Source: a virus. From it: a DNA stretch of 64,000 bases. The first letter of the stretch is position 1. Each line of letters starts with the position of its first letter. Both the position numbers and the translations under genes were made by a program. The notes beneath the pieces are model-generated. The model made no database searches and was not told the DNA's origin. It was given only the letters and a program-made list of their open reading frames with translations. Below, one piece after another: positions 6,359 to 37,309 of the stretch. The stretch is taken from IMG/VR virus record IMGVR_UViG_3300023179_000089, positions 8,563 through 72,562 of that record, one strand, 5' to 3'.

Positions 6359-7084
6359 ATGAAAGGAAATAAATCTGGAAAAGGCGTATTCGGTCAATAT
6401 AAAGGATACCAACTAATGGAAAGCCAGATTCGTTATGCGATGAGCAATACTACTTCAAATGCAGAAGCGGCAAAATGGCTACATGTATCATTTTCTACAT
6501 GGAAGAAATATGCAAAACGATATATCGACTCGGAAACGGGTAAAACGCTATTTCAGCTACACAAAGAGACTGGGTTTGCACAAAGATTAGTGCTACCAAA
6601 AACAAAATACAGAAGAAAAGCTTCTTCGCCATGGGCATTTCAGCCTCTTCCAATGGCCGACATCTTTGCAAACAAACATTTAAGATACTGTATTAGTCGA
6701 TTCAAAGATCGTTTAGTAAAAGAAGGGTGGAAGGAAGAGCGATGCGAAATATGCGGATATCAAGATCGAAGAGTTTCAGATTATGAAGTACCGCTGCGAA
6801 TTAATTGGCTCGACGATAATAAACGTAATTATTCTTTGGAAAATATTCAGTTAATCTGCCACAACTGTTATTTCATACATGTAGGAAACTTAAACGGCGG
6901 TAAATCAAAACAATTTAAAATTGACGAAGTTACCGGTGAAGTAGTACCTGCAGTTCCAGATCGAAAAACAATACGAGACCAAACTGTACCTCTCGGTCCT
7001 TATTTCAAACCTAGAACTTATGGTCAGCCTCTGCCGGAGTCTCTGGTGAAGAATCTAAAGTCAGATCCGAACCAAGATCATTAA
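6359..7084 (+). CDS. HTH plus degenerate HNH/Zn-finger protein
   Basis: AEAAKWLHVSFSTWKKYA HTH; CEICG...NYSLENIQLICHNCY; catalytic His not evident. Confidence 0.6.
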   Translation: MKGNKSGKGVFGQYKGYQLMESQIRYAMSNTTSNAEAAKWLHVSFSTWKKYAKRYIDSETGKTLFQLHKETGFAQRLVLPKTKYRRKASSPWAFQPLPMADIFANKHLRYCISRFKDRLVKEGWKEERCEICGYQDRRVSDYEVPLRINWLDDNKRNYSLENIQLICHNCYFIHVGNLNGGKSKQFKIDEVTGEVVPAVPDRKTIRDQTVPLGPYFKPRTYGQPLPESLVKNLKSDPNQDH

Positions 7085-7945: not shown

Positions 7946-8335
7946 ATGAAAATTTTCTTAGACGATGTAAGAATACCAAGCGATTGTATTGGATATATGT
8001 ATACTAGAATTGGATCATTGAATCCGATTTATTTAGAAAATTGGACTATTGTAAGAAATTACAATGAATTCGTAGATGTTGTAACAAATAACATTACGGA
8101 AATCACGCATATTTCTTTCGACCACGATTTAGCAGATGAGCATTACGATCCTGCAATGTATCATGGCACGGAAAAGTATATGGAGTTAGCTGGAAAGTTT
8201 AAAGAAAAAACTGGGCTAGATTGCGCGATATGGTTAAACGAATTTTATTTATCAGCTGGTAAATCTTTGCCGATCATGTTTGTTCATTCAATGAATCCTG
8301 TCGGAACTAAAAATATAATAGACGTTTTTAAATAA
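7946..8335 (+). CDS. cyclic-phosphate-processing receiver (cREC)-like protein
   Basis: IFLDDVR, ISFDHDL, KTGLDC, VHSMNPVG motifs. Confidence 0.75.
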   Translation: MKIFLDDVRIPSDCIGYMYTRIGSLNPIYLENWTIVRNYNEFVDVVTNNITEITHISFDHDLADEHYDPAMYHGTEKYMELAGKFKEKTGLDCAIWLNEFYLSAGKSLPIMFVHSMNPVGTKNIIDVFK

Positions 8336-9027: not shown

Positions 9028-9253
9028 ACGCGCGTTTATCGTCTATTTTACTAGTAACTAGCAGAAGTGTCGACGCGTAAATGGATGAATATATACTATT
9101 ACTCTTATTACTTTGGCAGAATAGTATCGGTGTAGTACGGTAGGTGTACGTAGGTGTAGAACGGGTAGGATGGATAGGCTAGAAAAGACCCGTTCATACA
9201 CCGCCTCGAGAAAGTTTTTTGCATATAGACCAGACGCCGCGAAAGATTTATCA

Positions 9254-9359
9254 ATTGCTACTCAATAGGTTACGTAACCAATTAATTGTCAATGCATTAG
9301 ATCGATCGATCGATTTGGTTCTTCAACGCAAATCACTTATCTTTATGTATAGTAATTAA
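9254..9359 (+). promoter_or_regulatory. composite early promoter copy 2
   Basis: GGTTACGTAACC palindrome, TTTG, CACTTATCTTTATGTATAGTAATTAA. Confidence 0.75.
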
Positions 9360-9366
9360 TTAAAAA

Positions 9367-9525
9367 ATGACTCGTAAATTGAATTCAGTAGAGCAAGTGT
9401 TATTTAAAGCCACTTACAACTTTCATCGCGAATTAGGTGACTCGGATCAAATAGCTCTGGAAAAAGCTCATCTTAAAATTGCTTCAAAGCGTCGGTTAAG
9501 CGCAAGTTGTTCTTTTAAATATTAA
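9367..9525 (+). CDS. hypothetical protein, 52 aa
   Basis: Hand translation MTRKLNSVEQVLFKATYNFHRELG...; directly after promoter. Confidence 0.6.
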   Translation: MTRKLNSVEQVLFKATYNFHRELGDSDQIALEKAHLKIASKRRLSASCSFKY

Positions 9526-9550
9526 AAAACAATCGCAAGCTTGCGCTCTT

Positions 9551-9667
9551 GTACGTACAGAACTGAATGATTTTGTTGAGTGTAGTGTACGGCGGTGTAC
9601 GGGGAATGTACATCAATAGTATTGTCATTCAGGTCGTTCACGTACGTACAGAACTGAATGATTTTGT
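9551..9667. repeat. 26-bp perfect direct repeat pair
   Basis: GTACGTACAGAACTGAATGATTTTGT at 9551 and 9642. Confidence 0.9.
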
Positions 9668-9700
9668 GTATAGCTAGGTTGTTTCAGTAAAAACAAGCTC

Positions 9701-9806
9701 CTTGAGTATTAATAGGTTACGTAACCAATTAATTTTCAATGAAATAAATTCACCAAATTATTTGGTACATGTAGATGAATTACTTATTTTTATGTATAGT
9801 AATTAA
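9701..9806 (+). promoter_or_regulatory. composite early promoter copy 3 (upstream of RNA cluster)
   Basis: GGTTACGTAACC, ACCAAATTATTTGGT, TACTTATTTTTATGTATAGTAATTAA. Confidence 0.8.
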
Positions 9807-9837
9807 TTAATTACTAAAAGTTCATTGAAAGAAATTT

Positions 9838-9910
9838 AGTCAGGTGGCAGATTGGGATGCAGGTTGCCCGAAACGGTCGCTCTATACAGGTTCGAATCCT
9901 GTCCTGACTA
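9838..9910 (+). tRNA. tRNA-like RNA 1 (pseudo; nominal anticodon CGA)
   Basis: Acceptor AGTCAGG/CCTGACT, T-arm ACAGG-TTCGAAT-CCTGT; anticodon stem has three G.U pairs and C33. Confidence 0.55.
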
Positions 9911-9927
9911 CTAAAATAAATAAAGTT

Positions 9928-10029
9928 ATGAAAAATGAAAAATGGTGGAATGGTTTCCTATTAGGACTTTTTATCGGGGGTATACTTGGTATAGTTATAC
10001 TTGATTTAGTTCAAAGAGGAATACTATAA
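9928..10029 (+). CDS. small single-TM protein, 33 aa
   Basis: MKNEKWWNGFLLGLFIGGILGIVILDLVQRGIL; true start downstream of tRNA-like 1. Confidence 0.55.
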   Translation: MKNEKWWNGFLLGLFIGGILGIVILDLVQRGIL

Positions 10030-10033
10030 ATTT

Positions 10034-10139
10034 AGTCAGGTGGCGGAATGGTAGACGCTCATAGTCGGATTGAATGAATTGGGGGACGATCCTCCAACCA
10101 CGGAGTGCCCAAATACAGGTTCGAATCCTGTCCTGACTA
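10034..10139 (+). ncRNA. tRNA-like RNA 2 with expanded central domain
   Basis: Same acceptor/T-arm, Leu-type D-arm GCGGAATGGTAGACGC, no canonical 7-nt anticodon loop. Confidence 0.65.
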
Positions 10140-10140
10140 C

Positions 10141-10432
10141 AATGAGTAAGAGATACTCAGCAGACTTGCCAATGTCTCATTTAAACTTGGTAGGGTATTG
10201 GACTGGACATCCTTAAACGCCAGTCTCAGTGGGAATAAAGGCAGGTAGCAGAGCCTCCCAGTAGCTTGACTAATTTTATGAGGGATGCCTCGCAGGTTTA
10301 TTGAAAGCAAGAAAACCGAAATAACTACTCACCAGTAATCTCAAGGTGGGGTCTGTAATGATAAAAAACAAAGGGCAGGGCGCAAAGACACTGAACAACG
10401 GGAGAGGCTGAGGAACTTCCATTATCATTACA
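10141..10432 (+). ncRNA. candidate structured ncRNA
   Basis: GC-elevated, no ORF in the track, consecutive stems e.g. TGAGTA/TACTCA, GACTGG/CCAGTC, TGGGA/TCCCA, CTCACC/GGTGGG, TGTAATGATAA/TTATCATTACA. Confidence 0.55.
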
Positions 10433-10435
10433 AAT

Positions 10436-10552
10436 AGTCAGGTGGCGGAATTTGGTTAGACGTACAGTACTTAACCTTGCAACACAGGTAACTCTGTTTA
10501 GTTGATTTGCTCACGGTACTGGGATATACAGGTTCGAATCCTGTCCTGACTA
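10436..10552 (+). ncRNA. tRNA-like RNA 3 with extended anticodon arm
   Basis: Same acceptor/T-arm; CAGTAC/GTACTG stem enclosing about 45 nt. Confidence 0.65.
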
Positions 10553-10589
10553 CAAATAACAAAATAATAGAAATAAAACTAAATTAAGC

Positions 10590-10793
10590 ATGACTAACAA
10601 AGTAGAAATAAAATCAATTATTCAAGACCTTAACCTTATGAATGAAGGAGTAGGTGTTGACGGTGAAACAATGCAGTATATTTTACAGCAAGTGGGAATG
10701 GAATGGCAAATGCTTCGACAGTTAATGTTAACAATGCCACCGCAGCAAGTACAGTATTTACTGCAAGAGCGTGAAGAGTTACAAATATTATAA
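10590..10793 (+). CDS. hypothetical protein
   Basis: 67-aa ORF with A-rich leader. Confidence 0.65.
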   Translation: MTNKVEIKSIIQDLNLMNEGVGVDGETMQYILQQVGMEWQMLRQLMLTMPPQQVQYLLQEREELQIL

Positions 10794-10845
10794 TCTAAAA
10801 TTACAAAAACACATAATCCTGACTGCTAAATTAAATAACATACAC

Positions 10846-11085
10846 GTGCGTATTCAAGATTTAAAATCTAAGCTTAGATTATCCAGACTGTTACTAAAAA
10901 CCGTTTCTTACAGAATACTCGCTACTGCTACGACTGTGGCAATTGCTTATTACTTAGGAATGTCTCTTCAAATTTCTTCTTTACTAGGCCTCAGTGAGCT
11001 AATTGTAAAACCAATTCTTTATTTTCTACATGAATTGTGTTGGCTACCTTACTTGTCAAGCTTGAAGATTCAATCGAACAGTTAG
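10846..11085 (+). CDS. DUF2061-like membrane protein
   Basis: LLKTVSYRILAT...KPILYFLHELCW; start uncertain (GTG 10846 or 10771). Confidence 0.6.
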   Translation: MRIQDLKSKLRLSRLLLKTVSYRILATATTVAIAYYLGMSLQISSLLGLSELIVKPILYFLHELCWLPYLSSLKIQSNS

Positions 11086-11260
11086 TGTACACGTACGTAC
11101 TGCATTGATACTCAATCAGAAATAATTTTACTGTACGTGCGTACTGTATTCATTTAATTCTTATCTTTATACTGTTCGATAATTGGGACTATCCCGGAGC
11201 CAACAAAAAAGAGCCCGGTAGGAGTAAGGCGCCAACAGATTTTTTTAAAAAAAATAATCT

Positions 11261-11365
11261 ATTGATACTCAATAGGTTACGTAACGCATTGATAGACATG
11301 GTAATAAATTTACCAAATGATTTGGTTCGATTGTATTTTTACTTATCTTTATGTATAGTAATTAA
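11261..11365 (+). promoter_or_regulatory. composite early promoter copy 4
   Basis: ATTGATACTCAATAGGTTACGTAACGCATTGATA ... TACTTATCTTTATGTATAGTAATTAA. Confidence 0.8.
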
Positions 11366-11372
11366 TTAAAAA

Positions 11373-12200
11373 ATGAAAGCAGAAACCAAAACCCTAAAAG
11401 TTCGTAAAACTCGTAAAGCTCGTAAAACTCGTAAACCGCGTACTCCGAGAGCAATGCAAGTTGCATTTAATCCTGATATTGTAAAATTAATTAGAGGTCA
11501 GGAATTAGACTTTTCAGACGCCGCTTTAGACCCTATGCCTACCGGAAAAGAGATTGACATTTTATTGTCGACTGAAGGAGGATTAATGCCTGGAACCAAC
11601 TTAATGCTTTGTGGTGGACCTGGATCGGGTAAGACAACTATCGCGTTAGACATATTATCTAACTTAACTAAATCAGGTTATAAGTGTTTATTCGTGTCAG
11701 CTGAAATGGATGAAATACAGCATTATAAGTATTGTAAACGTATGCCACATATAGGTTGTGTGCAGACATTGTTTTTGAAAAATTATGCAGAAAACCCGCA
11801 ACCGGTATTAGAATATGTATTCAATCAAGGTTATGATGTTGTATGTATAGACTCCTTTGCAGAAGTAATAGAATTGCTCCGCGACGCTTATAAATACTCT
11901 GAAGCGACAGCTGAAACTTGGTTATTGCATATTCAGGATAGAATGAAAAAAGGTGATAATCCTAACAAGTATTTTACGACATTTATTAATATTCAGCAAG
12001 TAACTAAAGGAGGTGACTTTGTGGGATCAAATCGTATTAAGCATATGACAGACGCTATGGGACATGTAGAAAGAAGTAAAGATGGAATGGAAAGAAGTAT
12101 ATACTTTTCCAAGCATAGAGATTGTGATAAAGATTATAAATTGCTTTTCGCAATAGGATCTGAAGGAGTTCATTATAGTTATGAGCCTGTTAAAGACTAA
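11373..12200 (+). CDS. RadA/Sms-like RecA-family ATPase
   Basis: Walker A GGPGSGKT, FVSAEM, Walker B VCIDS, QVTKGGDFVGSNRIKHMTD. Confidence 0.8.
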   Translation: MKAETKTLKVRKTRKARKTRKPRTPRAMQVAFNPDIVKLIRGQELDFSDAALDPMPTGKEIDILLSTEGGLMPGTNLMLCGGPGSGKTTIALDILSNLTKSGYKCLFVSAEMDEIQHYKYCKRMPHIGCVQTLFLKNYAENPQPVLEYVFNQGYDVVCIDSFAEVIELLRDAYKYSEATAETWLLHIQDRMKKGDNPNKYFTTFINIQQVTKGGDFVGSNRIKHMTDAMGHVERSKDGMERSIYFSKHRDCDKDYKLLFAIGSEGVHYSYEPVKD

Positions 12201-12293: not shown

Positions 12294-13025
12294 ATGAAAA
12301 ACCACTTAAAACTTTATCAGATCCCTGACAGTTTAGACGCTGCGCAAGCTTTTGCAAAAACAATCTCTGGAAAATACATTCATCCATCTTTACGCAATGC
12401 AAATTACATTCCTAGTATTCAACCTGTCGAAGAATTTCGCAAATTAGGATGGCAAATTACCGGTGTAAGAGATTGGAATACAAATGGAAAACCTTTAGAG
12501 AATTCAGTTCAAATGACGCATCCTGACTTCGCAGATTCAGAATCTAAATTAAATTTATTAATTAATAATTCTGCGAATGGAAATTGGCCAATGACAATGT
12601 CGCTAGGACTTTATCGAAAAGTATGCAGTAATGGATTAGTTGCATTTCGCGAAAATGCGACAGCTGTGATTCAACATAAAGCAGGTGTAGATCTTCAATC
12701 TTATATTGATGTACTTAATTCGCAAGCCGCGGAAATACATAAAGACTTTGCGCGAATGAAAGACGTCGTGTTGTCGACAGCTCAAATTGAAGAATTTGCG
12801 AAAGCAGCTATTGCAAAACGTTATCAACTTTCTTTAGAAGAAGAATCGAAAATAGATGTCACTCCATTTTTAACGATTAGAAGAGAAGAAGACGCGGGGC
12901 AGGATTTATGGAAAGTATTCAATAGACTGCAAGAAAATCTTTCTTTAGATTTTACAGATGCAAAACAATATGTAGCATTTAATCGAGAAATTTCTTCTAT
13001 GGCTTCGACTTTAGTAACTGCATAA
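12294..13025 (+). CDS. DUF932/DUF945-family protein
   Basis: LLINNSANG..MSLGLYRKVCSNGLV, RREED..DLWKVFNRLQENL. Confidence 0.75.
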   Translation: MKNHLKLYQIPDSLDAAQAFAKTISGKYIHPSLRNANYIPSIQPVEEFRKLGWQITGVRDWNTNGKPLENSVQMTHPDFADSESKLNLLINNSANGNWPMTMSLGLYRKVCSNGLVAFRENATAVIQHKAGVDLQSYIDVLNSQAAEIHKDFARMKDVVLSTAQIEEFAKAAIAKRYQLSLEEESKIDVTPFLTIRREEDAGQDLWKVFNRLQENLSLDFTDAKQYVAFNREISSMASTLVTA

Positions 13026-25441: not shown

Positions 25442-25828
25442 GGGGGCGAATGGTATAGATTGACAGAATAGTTCTTTGAGATGATGCACGCAGTGCTAGT
25501 ATTGGAAGCACTTAAATATCCTATATAACGAATAACTGGAAACGAAATCTCTGATTTCACTTACGAAGACGCTATGGCGTTCGTAAGCGGCGAATATGCT
25601 TTAGCAGCTTAATTGCCAACGGGTCGGCGCACATATAACCTAGGAACAGAAGTGAATGGATTGGTGAAAAAACAATTGAACCTTAAATCGAATTGTCCAT
25701 TGGTTGTTAGTTTACGATGGCTGAAGAACAAACTAAATATTTTGAGTCGTTAGAAAATGACATCTAAGCGTGTGAATGAGTCCTTAAATTGTCTGGGCAA
25801 GACGAGGGTTCGACTCCCTCCGCCTCCA
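25442..25828 (+). ncRNA. ssrA: tmRNA
   Basis: GGGGGCG/CGCCTCC-A acceptor with G3.U; T-arm GAGGG-TTCGACT-CCCTC; ATAACT then tag frame 25538-25612 GNEISDFTYEDAMAFVSGEYALAA*. Confidence 0.92.
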
Positions 25829-25866
25829 CTAATTCACGGAGTATTAACCTTTAAATTGAATCGAAT

Positions 25867-37206: not shown

Positions 37207-37281
37207 CGCGGGATGGACTGGAGATGGTACCAGCTCGGTCTCATAAGCCGAACGACGTAGGTTCGAATCCTACTCCCGCTA
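37207..37281 (+). tRNA. tRNA-Met(CAT), initiator-like
   Basis: C1 mismatch, GCGGGA/TCCCGC, TCGGT-CTCATAA-GCCGA, GTAGG-TTCGAAT-CCTAC; CCA not encoded. Confidence 0.9.
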
Positions 37282-37309
37282 CTAAATGCGATCGTTTTTC
37301 TTAAATCAA

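What the first reader, a model, noticed from the sequence alone, without database searches (positions are those of the whole stretch)
9701..10552. Array of tRNA scaffolds with constant acceptor/T arms and swapped central domains
Seen: behind one promoter are three elements (9838, 10034, 10436) sharing TAGTCAGGTGGC at the 5' end and an identical 28-nt ATACAGGTTCGAATCCTGTCCTGACTAC at the 3' end. Their middles are unrelated (total lengths 73, 106 and 117 nt) and none has a sound anticodon arm. They alternate with cargo: a 33-aa TM ORF and a roughly 290-nt structured RNA. Inference: these are not decoding tRNAs. Options are RNase P/Z cut marks that release cargo RNAs, stable scaffolds displaying variable loops (guides, or decoys for anticodon nucleases), or recombination repeats for cassette exchange.
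Basis: partly seen in the sequence, partly recalled or inferred. Interest (0 to 1): 0.8.

Follow-up and report, generated by a model that had tools for sequence, protein, structure and literature searches.

The report
Anticodon-less leucine-tRNA-framed phage RNAs
Three small genes in this uncultured lake-type phage keep the ends and elbow of a leucine tRNA but carry unrelated folded inserts where the codon-reading arm should be; they belong to a very large phage RNA family that I did not find described and whose job is still unknown.

Summary
Elements at 9838-9910, 10034-10139 and 10436-10552 share a 12-nt 5' end and a 28-nt 3' end (0 expected by chance). All have an acceptor stem, a leucine-type D arm, a T arm and A73, but no sound anticodon arm.

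They are not decaying tRNA copies. The same frame occurs in at least 120 IMG/VR contigs, with middles that give total lengths of 54-259 nt. It occurs in no canonical cellular tRNA (14 MAG contigs only) and in no GenBank phage.

The frame is under RNA-level selection: the tertiary 15-48 pair covaries. It has the same flanks as genuine phage tRNAs. It keeps the elements that a LeuRS study reports as critical for charging, and that study found the anticodon arm dispensable (PMC2377443).

The units alternate with a conserved 33-aa membrane ORF and a composite RNA. One module of that RNA sits inside the same frame in other phages.

Best reading: non-decoding carrier RNAs cut out by tRNA-processing enzymes, possibly leucylated, with the insert as the working part. 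Function is unproven. Closest known are phage T5 RNA1 and RNA2. This scan has flagged the same family on many other genomes.

The parts
9689..9817 (+). Phage promoter/operator-like module upstream of the array. It holds the palindrome GGTTACGTAACC at 9715-9726 and the 22-mer TTTATGTATAGTAATTAATTAA at 9789-9810.
   Evidence: Three copies of the module lie within 2.8 kb (9242-9370, 9689-9817, 11249-11376); the other two end at ATG start codons. The 22-mer occurs 11 times on the + strand, 0 expected. The palindrome lies 73-78 nt upstream of 6 of those copies. Promoter activity is inferred, not shown.
9838..9910 (+). Unit 1: 73-nt Leu-tRNA-type frame with a short hairpin middle and no sound anticodon arm. 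C74 is at 9911.
   Evidence: Loop CCCGAAA lacks U33. No homologue of the middle was found.
9928..10029 (+). 33-aa single-pass membrane ORF (MKNEKWWNGFLLGLFIGGILGIVILDLVQRGIL) lying between units 1 and 2.
   Evidence: A homologue with one identical protein sequence occurs in two other IMG/VR contigs (L040, L148). In each it is followed 8-9 nt after the stop by AGTCAGG. Against L040 there are 13 synonymous and 6 nonsynonymous codon differences. There are no PHROG hits.
10034..10139 (+). Unit 2: 106-nt frame with a 55-nt middle that holds an 8-bp hairpin (TTGGGGGA/TCCTCCAA).
   Evidence: No homologue of the middle was found.
10140..10352 (+). ~213-nt structured RNA module that starts directly after C74 of unit 2.
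Evidence: Homologues lie wedged between tRNA genes in L044 (97.7% identity over 88 nt), L103, L018, L012 and L048. No Rfam match. RNA-library contigs match exactly at 10198-10339.
10353..10432 (+). ~80-nt hairpin module closed by GTAATGATAA/TTATCATTAC, lying free between the 213-nt RNA and unit 3.
   Evidence: The same module is the middle of a Leu frame in L069 and L080. It stands free beside a tRNA-like gene in L011. Relatives seen in RNA-run contigs lack it: position 10351 joins straight to a frame (table 5c).
10436..10552 (+). Unit 3: 117-nt frame whose middle is a long irregular hairpin (CAGTAC/GTACTG, GCAA/TTGC, ACAG/CTGT, loop GTAACT).
   Evidence: The whole unit is identical in 111 of 117 aligned columns in L147, where the flanks are unrelated.
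10590..10793 (+). 67-aa ORF downstream, with no promoter 22-mer in between. It is possibly on the same transcript.
   Evidence: the next 22-mer is at 11348. No Pfam or PHROG hit. Co-transcription is inferred.

Best explanation
The stretch is a phage RNA island transcribed from one phage-type promoter.

It encodes three non-decoding carrier RNAs. Each is built on the upper body of a leucine tRNA: a 7-bp acceptor stem, a leucine-type D arm, a T arm, A73, and the U8-A14, A15-U48 and G18/G19-T-loop contacts. An unrelated folded insert replaces the anticodon arm.

Inferred steps:
- The host's tRNA maturation enzymes (RNase P at the 5' end; RNase Z or exonucleases plus the CCA-adding enzyme at the 3' end) cut the units out of the precursor.
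- The same cuts free the 33-aa-ORF message and the 213-nt + 80-nt RNA that lie between the units.
- The frame gives exact ends, an L-shaped fold and metabolic stability, much as the engineered 'tRNA scaffold' does for recombinant RNAs.
- The insert is the working part: a protein- or RNA-binding module.

A further inference, which I hold at about 0.3: the frame can be leucylated, because it keeps the core-contact elements that the LeuRS study reports as critical (the variable-arm orientation is untested) and that enzyme did not need an anticodon arm.

Shown here: the anatomy, the family, the RNA-level constraint, the tRNA-like flanks and the modularity. Not shown: processing, charging, or what any insert binds.
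For: 1. Anatomy and non-chance repeats.
2. A large family. My scan of 134 loci plus the record found 213 units, 206 of them unique. Their median length is 103 nt and 126 of 206 exceed 95 nt.
3. The frames are intact, not decaying. Of 157 exact 3' sites, 146 have a fully pairing 5' strand, 5 are cut by locus ends, 4 have one mismatch and 2 lack the 5' half.
4. RNA-level selection on features I did not use to detect units. The 15-48 pair is A-U in 153 units and G-C in 7, against G-U in 2 and A-C in 5. On alignment A1, the D-stem pairs show 2, 9 and 6 double changes and the 15-48 pair shows 10. All measures exceeded 500 of 500 shuffles and all slid controls.
5. The same flanks as canonical tRNAs of the same loci. 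C74 occurs in 207 of 213 units against 159 of 162 tRNAs, A76 in 148 of 213 against 111 of 162, and T at -1 in 173 of 213 against 110 of 162.
6. Leucine type. The D arm is closest to the tRNA-Leu genes of the same loci, with a mean score of 10.8 of 19 against 5.8-9.2 for other isotypes. L096, L062 and L068 carry a near-canonical tRNA-Leu(UAA) on the same frame. A73 occurs in 203 of 213 units.
7. LeuRS. In Aquifex, A73 with U8-A14, G18-U55 and G19-C56 is critical. Deleting the whole anticodon stem-loop lowers tRNA affinity only 2.5-fold (PMC2377443, abstract and passages).
8. The cargo is modular. The 80-nt module is framed in L069 and L080 and free in the window and L011. Unit 3 is 111 of 117 identical in L147, amid unrelated flanks.
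9. Contigs from 4 RNA-seq libraries of 4 studies lie on the array. Some match exactly: 10198-10339, 10364-10514 and 10436-10541. This is weak evidence, because these are contigs and DNA carry-over is possible.
Against: - No read-level evidence exists for 5' or 3' ends, CCA addition or charging. The RNA runs were contigs only.
- No insert matched any Rfam family.
- No insert of units 1 and 2 has a known homologue, so conservation of those two cargos is untested.
- The near-invariance of the acceptor and T-arm sequence across unrelated phages is stronger than a carrier role alone requires, and I cannot name the partner that would read it.
- My unit detector required full pairing of the acceptor and T stems, so their 100% pairing and double changes are partly circular.
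- No conserved protein neighbour was found; the best cluster is present in 17 of 135 sources.
Confidence: 0.5

Rival explanations
1. The frame itself is the working part. Abundant anticodon-less, possibly leucylated tRNA look-alikes would soak up a host factor that acts on the acceptor end or elbow of tRNAs. Candidates are a defence toxin that modifies or cuts tRNA 3' ends, or LeuRS, EF-Tu or the CCA enzyme. On this view the inserts are tolerated filler.
For: The acceptor and T-arm sequences are almost invariant across otherwise unrelated phages: 185 of 213 units have the identical acceptor pairing and 154 of 213 the identical T arm. Copies within one phage are no more alike than copies between phages (0.850 against 0.860). 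That points to a family-wide, sequence-reading constraint. An RNA-end-processing domain protein (cREC_REC, 66.9 bits) lies 1.5 kb upstream.
Against: Individual inserts are conserved as units between phages: unit 3 at 111 of 117 columns, the 80-nt module at 88-90%, and recurring short cargos. Filler would not be conserved like this. A sponge does not need dozens of different structured inserts. No such toxin or partner was identified here.
Confidence: 0.15
2. The constant ends act mainly at the DNA level, as portable homology arms. Co-infecting phages would use them to exchange cassettes (inserts, small ORFs, other RNAs), in the way promoter-stem-loop repeats are thought to shuffle genes in T4-type phages.
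For: The same unit sits in unrelated flanks. The 33-aa ORF is kept while its upstream neighbour differs: a 73-nt unit in the window, a 106-nt unit in L040, and only the last bases of a frame in L148. One cargo occurs framed or free. Assemblies break at the frame in L040's and L148's contigs.
Against: Selection is visible at the RNA level, in the 15-48 and D-stem covariation and in G-U-preserving variants. DNA homology arms do not need that. The units also carry tRNA-type flanks and appear in RNA libraries. Exchange may be a side effect rather than the function.
Confidence: 0.12
3. They are decoding tRNAs of unusual shape. This could apply to unit 1 especially, read as a tRNA with anticodon CGA on a leucine-type body. 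Alternatively they are tRNAs whose middles are introns removed before use.
For: ARAGORN calls unit 1 tRNA-Ser(cga). Rfam tRNA scores for units 1 and 2 exceed the gathering score. A few family members carry a proper arm: L036, 71 nt, anticodon UUU; and L096, L062 and L068, Leu UAA.
Against: Unit 1 has C33 and three G-U pairs in the stem. Units 2 and 3 have no arm at all. Only 2 of 206 members have a strict arm. ARAGORN's 45 calls on 206 members scatter over many isotypes, and 12 have 2- or 4-base 'anticodons'. No intron family matched, and the middles are too short for group I introns.
Confidence: 0.04
4. They are tmRNA-like or Y-RNA-like molecules. The tRNA-like part would dock on the ribosome (with SmpB) or on a Ro60/PNPase-type machine, and the insert would be the functional domain.
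For: The topology matches tmRNA: an insert between the D region and the T arm. The phage has its own tmRNA. A YrlA-like RNA (40.4 bits, E 9e-08) lies in a related RNA island.
Against: There is no tmRNA or YrlA match on the units at E up to 10. Position 3:70 is U-A, not the G-U of alanine acceptors. No TROVE/Ro60 or RtcB gene lies in the 72.5-kb record, which is only 41% complete. Many inserts are too short to hold a tag frame.
Confidence: 0.04

Closest known systems
Phage T5 RNA1 and RNA2 (GenBank AY543070, 30501-30644 and 32959-33083, annotated 'tRNA-like stable RNA with unknown functions')
   Same: Both are oversized tRNA-shaped RNAs (144 and 125 nt) inside a phage tRNA gene region that also holds small ORFs, other stable RNAs and promoters. 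RNA1 has a leucine-type D arm (GCCGGAATTGGTAGACGG), a ~70-nt middle, a T arm and paired ends. RNA2 has a T arm almost identical to the one here.
   Different: The acceptor stems and middles differ. There is no blastn match between unit 2 and any GenBank phage at E 1e-3. T5 has single copies rather than a many-membered family with one invariant frame. Their function is also unknown, and I found no paper on it in the library.
Engineered 'tRNA scaffold' for recombinant RNA. The method is recalled; only the search listing of PMC3753655 and PMC3401473 was seen.
   Same: The anticodon arm of a tRNA is replaced by an RNA of interest, so that the cell processes and stabilises it as a tRNA. This is the same architecture.
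   Different: It is man-made and uses other tRNA bodies. Here the design is natural, leucine-type and present in hundreds of variants.
tmRNA
   Same: It has a tRNA-like acceptor/T module with a large functional insert between the D region and the T arm. It is processed by tRNA enzymes and aminoacylated without an anticodon (established knowledge; abstract start of PMC3985003 seen in the listing).
   Different: tmRNA has alanine identity (G3-U70), no D stem, pseudoknots and a tag reading frame, and it needs SmpB. None of these is seen in the units, and the Rfam tmRNA model does not match them.
Bacterial class II tRNA-Leu
   Same: Shared features are A73, U8-A14, A15-U48, a 3-bp D stem with G18G19, and the T loop TTCGAAT. 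The D arm is closest to the tRNA-Leu genes of the same loci.
   Different: The units have no anticodon arm and no regular long variable arm. The 25-mer 3' end is found in no canonical tRNA among one genome each of 185,579 species.
YrlA / bacterial Y RNAs (Rfam RF02553; abstract start of PMC4201824 seen in the listing)
   Same: They are non-coding RNAs that mimic tRNA and occur in phages. A YrlA-like RNA lies in a related island.
   Different: In YrlA the tRNA-like module is internal and permuted, and the free ends form the Ro-binding stem. Here the acceptor ends are free. The units give no match.

Membership tests
Canonical tRNA (Rfam RF00005) | 7-bp acceptor stem, T arm with T-loop, D arm | tested here: met
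   all three units have them. Bit scores are 38.2, 40.1 and 17.9, against a gathering score of 29.
Canonical tRNA (Rfam RF00005) | Anticodon arm: 5-bp stem and 7-nt loop with U33 and a purine at 37 | tested here: not met
   Unit 1 has loop CCCGAAA (C33) on a stem with three G-U pairs. Units 2 and 3 have none: the model skips 52 nt in unit 2 and 21+12 nt in unit 3. In the family, 2 of 206 members have a strict arm.
Bacterial tRNA-Leu | A73 plus the tertiary core (U8-A14, A15-U48, G18/G19 with the T loop) and a leucine-type D arm | tested here: met
   Units 2 and 3 have all of these. Unit 1 has U15-U48. The identity set is taken from PMC2377443.
Bacterial tRNA-Leu | Leucine anticodon and a long variable arm in the proper orientation | tested here: not met
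   No leucine anticodon loop is present. Only unit 2 has a hairpin that could stand for a variable arm, and 17 further bases follow it.
Bacterial tRNA-Leu | Aminoacylation by LeuRS | not testable with these tools
   This needs an enzyme assay or charged-RNA sequencing.
Uncatalogued phage 'AGTCAGG' Leu-frame family (this scan; no published name found) | 5' AGTCAGG-TG-(leucine-type D arm), 3' ACAGGTTCGAATCCTGT-CCTGACT-A-C, with a variable middle | tested here: met
   All three units carry the exact ends. There are 213 such units in 134 loci plus the record.
T5 RNA1/RNA2-type tRNA-like stable RNAs | Stable, processed RNA species seen in infected cells | not testable with these tools
   Only contigs of RNA libraries were available, and they cannot show ends.
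T5 RNA1/RNA2-type tRNA-like stable RNAs | Sequence homology to T5 RNA1 or RNA2 | tested here: not met
   There is no blastn match to any of 50,697 phage records at E 1e-3. Only the D arm (RNA1) and the T arm (RNA2) look alike by eye.
tmRNA (RF00023) | G3-U70, a tag reading frame and pseudoknots | tested here: not met
   Position 3:70 is U-A, and the units give no RF00023 match at E up to 10. The true tmRNA of the phage is at 25442-25831.
tRNA-Leu with group I intron | A self-splicing intron of 200 nt or more in the anticodon loop | tested here: not met
   There is no intron family match at E up to 10, and the middles are 23-65 nt.

The most novel reading that the evidence does not exclude
Freshwater phages run a natural 'plug-and-play' RNA expression system. 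One invariant leucine-tRNA chassis is cut out by tRNA enzymes, carries a pool of exchangeable functional RNA modules, and is actually charged with leucine. That would create a class of aminoacylated, anticodon-less RNAs. Through the charged end they could engage EF-Tu, the ribosome or aminoacyl-transferases, or blunt defences that act on tRNA ends, while the insert does its own job.
Probability: 0.2. Interest if true: 0.9.

Novelty: new variant of a known kind. Interest (0 to 1): 0.7.

Why it matters
If these units are what they look like, phages evolved the 'tRNA scaffold' trick long before biotechnologists did: one invariant tRNA body used to make, trim and stabilise many different small RNAs.

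The family is large, seemingly phage-only, absent from Rfam and from GenBank phages, and not found in the papers searched. A whole layer of phage RNA biology would therefore be unannotated.

The frame keeps the LeuRS elements A73 and the tertiary core (the variable-arm orientation is untested), which raises a directly testable question: do cells under phage attack contain leucine-charged RNAs that cannot decode?

Phage T5 has two look-alike RNAs of unknown function and grows on E. coli. That gives a laboratory handle on a question left open since those RNAs were annotated.

Tried and rejected
Relatives of the phage. A search through the 275-aa ATPase at 11373-12200 gave 7 pattern matches, none confirmed. 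No syntenic relative could therefore be compared.

Homologues of the middles. The 17-mer of unit 1 hit 9 contigs, all inside unrelated protein-coding DNA, so these are chance hits. The 19-mer of unit 2 hit nothing. blastn-short of all parts against 134 loci found nothing for the three middles.

GenBank phages. There was no match at E 1e-3. At E 10 there were 822 records, but they matched only generic T-arm pieces of ordinary tRNAs, with at most 38% of the query covered.

Guide idea. The longest exact same-strand or antisense words between each cargo and the rest of the 72.5-kb record were no longer than in 200 shuffles.

Phage-encoded partners.
- No PolyA_pol/CCA enzyme, TROVE/Ro60 or RtcB was found in the record, which is only 41% complete, so absence means little.
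- No conserved neighbouring protein was found. The best cluster is DUF932-like and present in 17 of 135 sources.

RNA runs. Only assembled contigs were available, so no ends, strand or CCA could be read. The bins 9600-9845 and 10584-10800 had no cover in any of the 4 RNA runs.

Other steps that led nowhere.
- Constrained MFE folds of the family gave a noisy picture of how the insert joins the frame, and I draw nothing from it.
- Within-phage copies are not more alike than between-phage copies, so I dropped local gene conversion.
- T5 record AY587007 carries no misc_RNA lines at these places.
- Larkin et al. 2002 (PMC115294) is not held. I know it only from the reference list of PMC2377443 and from recall.
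- Supplements of PMC10690425, which lists 8,495 IMG/VR RNA candidates, could not be seen and may include some of these inserts.

Searches behind 'not found described'.
Full report
WHAT IS THERE

The window is bases 8563-72562 of a 72.5-kb IMG/VR virus record that CheckV rates 41% complete. It is AT-rich (32.4% G+C), and all 54 ORFs of 120 aa or more lie on the + strand.

At 9838-9910, 10034-10139 and 10436-10552 lie three units of 73, 106 and 117 nt. Each starts with AGTCAGG-TG-G and ends with ATACAGGTTCGAATCCTGT-CCTGACT-A, followed by C. The 28-mer and the 12-mer (which includes a T at -1) each occur exactly three times in the window. None is expected by chance.

Each unit has these parts:
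- a 7-bp acceptor stem, AGTCAGG/CCTGACT;
- U8;
- a 3-bp D stem with a GG-bearing loop (GCGGAATGGTAGACGC in unit 2);
- a 5-bp T stem with loop TTCGAAT;
- discriminator A73.

The middles are unrelated to one another.
- Unit 1 has a short hairpin whose loop, CCCGAAA, lacks U33.
- Unit 2 has 55 nt that include an 8-bp hairpin.
- Unit 3 has a 65-nt irregular hairpin.

ARAGORN calls only unit 1, as tRNA-Ser(cga) with the anticodon at an odd position. The Rfam tRNA model reaches 38.2, 40.1 and 17.9 bits only by jumping over the middles. No other Rfam family matches 9400-10900 at E up to 1; at the E 10 limit there were only two chance-level hits outside the units (CRISPR-DR22 at 9665-9694, E 8; Histone3 at 9400-9436, E 8.7).

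THE SURROUNDINGS

A ~130-nt module lies directly upstream, at 9689-9817. It recurs at 9242-9370 and 11249-11376, where it ends at the start codons of two genes.

Its 3' part, TTTATGTATAGTAATTAATTAA, occurs 11 times in the window, always on the + strand, with 0 expected. Six of these copies have the palindrome GGTTACGTAACC 73-78 nt upstream. The sigma-70 scan finds nothing there. I read the module as a phage-specific, probably regulated promoter, which is an inference. The copy at 9789-9810 lies 27 nt before unit 1, and the next copy is at 11348.

The likely transcript therefore runs: unit 1, a 33-aa membrane ORF (9928-10029), unit 2, a ~213-nt RNA (10140-10352), an ~80-nt hairpin RNA (10353-10432), unit 3, then a 67-aa ORF and a 104-aa DUF2061 membrane protein.

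THE FAMILY

I wrote a detector for tRNA-shaped units and ran it on 134 fetched loci plus the record. It requires a T loop TTCRANN, a fully paired 5-bp T stem, and a fully paired 7-bp acceptor within 260 nt. It found 412 units.
- 213 have this acceptor in at least 5 of 7 positions on both strands. Of these, 206 are unique, their lengths run from 54 to 259 nt (median 103), and 126 exceed 95 nt.
- Most of the remaining 199 are ordinary tRNAs of 70-90 nt.

Only 2 of the 206 have a strict anticodon arm next to the D arm, and one of those is a plain tRNA-Asp admitted by my loose filter. ARAGORN makes 45 calls on the 206. They scatter over many isotypes, and 12 have 2- or 4-base 'anticodons'.

Three loci (L096, L062, L068) hold a near-canonical 90-nt tRNA-Leu(UAA) on the same frame. 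The D arm is most like the tRNA-Leu genes of the same loci: a mean score of 10.8 of 19, against 5.8-9.2 for every other isotype. The frame is therefore a leucine-tRNA derivative.

The family looks phage-only.
- Among one genome each of 185,579 bacterial and archaeal species, the 25-mer occurs in only 14 contigs.
- All 14 are from metagenome bins of inconsistent taxonomy, 5 of them Bacteroidota. All carry oversized units of 81-196 nt, and none is a normal tRNA.
- None of 50,697 GenBank phage records holds it.

IS IT A DECAYING tRNA?

No. Of 157 exact 3' sites:
- 146 have a fully pairing 5' strand;
- 5 are cut off by locus ends or masked bases;
- 4 have a single mismatch;
- 2 lack the 5' half.

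RNA-LEVEL SELECTION

My detector forced pairing in the acceptor and T stems. Their 100% pairing and double changes are therefore partly circular, and I do not lean on them.

Two features were not used for detection.
- The tertiary 15-48 pair. It is A-U in 153 units and G-C in 7, against G-U in 2 and A-C in 5; U-A occurs 3 times and C-G twice. G15 thus goes with C48.
- The D stem. On a 150-row alignment (56 'bystander' units that lack the exact 25-mer, 91 units that have it, and the three window units), the three D-stem pairs show 2, 9 and 6 double changes, and the 15-48 pair shows 10.

Every measure on that alignment exceeded all 500 shuffles and all six slid controls. This says the RNA folds as an L-shaped tRNA body.

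Copies within one phage are no more alike in the frame than copies from different phages (0.850 against 0.860). The near-invariance of the frame is therefore a family-wide constraint, not local gene conversion.

PROCESSING SIGNALS

The units share the flanks of the genuine tRNA genes of the same loci:

| Position | Units | Canonical tRNAs |
|---|---|---|
| T at -1 | 173 of 213 | 110 of 162 |
| C at 74 | 207 of 213 | 159 of 162 |
| C at 75 (rare) | 10 of 213 | 16 of 162 |
| A at 76 | 148 of 213 | 111 of 162 |

Whatever matures these phages' tRNAs should handle the units in the same way. That is an inference.

The RNAs between units abut them exactly. The 213-nt RNA starts right after C74 of unit 2, as its homologue does after a tRNA in L044. 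Unit 3 starts 3 nt after the hairpin module.

Contigs from four RNA-seq libraries of four studies lie on the array. They include exact pieces at 10198-10339, 10364-10514 (which crosses into unit 3) and 10436-10541, and a piece at 9896-10059 with one difference. These are assembled contigs and DNA carry-over cannot be excluded, so they show presence in RNA libraries and no more.

MODULARITY

- The 80-nt hairpin module is the insert of a Leu frame in L069 and L080. It stands free, beside a tRNA-like gene, in L011 and in this window. Relatives caught in the RNA runs lack it altogether (table 5c). A cargo can therefore live with or without the frame, which argues that the cargo has its own function and the frame is a carrier.
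- Unit 3, frame plus insert, is identical in 111 of 117 columns in L147, where 150 nt on either side align at only about 50%. The two changes in its basal stem turn A-U pairs into G-U pairs.
- The 33-aa ORF recurs in L040 and L148 with one identical protein sequence. Against L040 there are 23 base differences in the 102-nt gene: 13 synonymous and 6 conservative nonsynonymous codon changes. Each time a frame follows 8-9 nt after the stop codon. The upstream neighbour differs: a 73-nt unit here, a 106-nt unit in L040, and only the last bases of a frame in L148.
- Both of those contigs end at the frame, so the next insert could not be compared.

WHAT THE FRAME COULD DO

[quoted passage not shown] The anticodon arm is dispensable: deleting it lowers tRNA affinity only 2.5-fold, though it is needed for editing. 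For E. coli the same paper lists A73 with U8-A14, A15-U48, G18-U55 and G19-C56 as the leucine identity set (PMC2377443, abstract and passages).

The units keep all of these except a regular variable arm. Leucylation is thus plausible but untested, and I put it at about 0.3.

Even without charging, the acceptor/T half plus the elbow is what RNase P, RNase Z and the CCA enzyme recognise (established knowledge). It is also the part that the engineered tRNA scaffold exploits (recalled; only a listing was seen).

WHAT THE INSERTS DO

This is unknown.
- No insert matched Rfam, either in the window or in 20 further loci totalling 66 kb. There the units hit only tRNA-clan models.
- The inserts are not complementary to the rest of this record beyond chance.
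- No protein is a regular neighbour.
- The record holds no CCA enzyme, Ro60 or RtcB gene, though it is incomplete.

COMPARISON WITH WHAT IS KNOWN

The nearest annotated things are T5 RNA1 (144 nt) and RNA2 (125 nt), labelled 'tRNA-like stable RNA with unknown functions' in AY543070. RNA1 has a leucine-type D arm, a ~70-nt middle and a T arm. RNA2 has nearly the same T arm as here. The T5 tRNA region also mixes tRNAs, other stable RNAs, promoters and small ORFs, one of them with two membrane helices. This is the same kind of island, but there is no sequence homology by blastn.

tmRNA has the same topology but a different identity and different parts. YrlA is a permuted mimic. The three tRNA-mimic families of a 2026 preprint (skipping-rope, DUF2693-FD, salivarius-1) are bacterial motifs with a different connectivity, according to its abstract.

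Five literature searches found no description of this family.

Earlier notes of this scan describe the same family on many other genomes, also with unknown function. From them I took the T5 lead and the 213-nt-RNA lead, and I checked both here.

VERDICT

I commit to tRNA-framed carrier RNAs that are matured by the tRNA pathway, with the insert as the working part (confidence 0.5). Possible leucylation is the boldest live extension.

Relative to print, this is a new variant of a known kind, the phage tRNA-like stable RNAs. It is made striking by one invariant chassis and hundreds of inserts.

Noticed in passing
window 25442-25831: The phage encodes its own tmRNA (Rfam 75.7 bits; ARAGORN tag peptide GNEISDFTYEDAMAFVSGEYALAA). 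Another family-bearing locus, L056, also holds a tmRNA.
   Followed up: no
window 7946-8335: A 129-aa protein matches the Pfam cREC_REC 'cyclic-phosphate processing receiver domain' (66.9 bits). This is an RNA-end-processing domain, and it lies 1.5 kb upstream of the array. Similar proteins lie in 7 of 135 sources near family units (cluster 14).
   Followed up: partly
window, 11 sites from 7333 to 37931: The 22-mer TTTATGTATAGTAATTAATTAA (up to 2 mismatches) occurs 11 times, all on the + strand. Six copies have the palindrome GGTTACGTAACC 73-78 nt upstream. This is probably a class of regulated phage promoters.
   Followed up: partly
window 9544-9576, 9635-9667, 11087-11108: A further repeat (CGTACGTACAGAACTGAATGATTTTGT-like) has two copies 91 nt apart just upstream of the promoter module and a weaker third copy. 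It is unexplained.
   Followed up: no
whole window: Only 2 of 54 long ORFs have a Shine-Dalgarno-like motif upstream, and the leaders are A/T-rich. Together with 5 of the 14 MAG hits being Bacteroidota bins, this hints at a Bacteroidota host. It is a hint only.
   Followed up: partly
window 37207-37282: One ordinary tRNA-Met gene (ARAGORN; Rfam 36.5 bits). It is the only canonical tRNA in the window.
   Followed up: no
L123 4495-4593 and 5497-5635; L018 4124-4186: Related phage RNA islands also hold a YrlA-like RNA (40.4 bits, E 9e-08), the 5' part of a GOLLD RNA (68.7 bits, cut by the locus end) and a freshwater-1 RNA (70.1 bits, gathering score 72).
   Followed up: partly
L148 about 11430-11545: An oversized leucine-type tRNA-like unit has a different acceptor stem (GCGGGA/TCCCGC) and T stem (GCAGG/CCTGC). 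Other oversized units with other acceptors occur in L012, L004, L033, L065, L076 and L136. More than one chassis therefore exists.
   Followed up: no
window 6359-7084 and 12294-13025: An HNH endonuclease-like ORF (PHROG 14736) and a DUF932 protein. DUF932-like proteins are the commonest neighbour of family units, in 17 of 135 sources.
   Followed up: no
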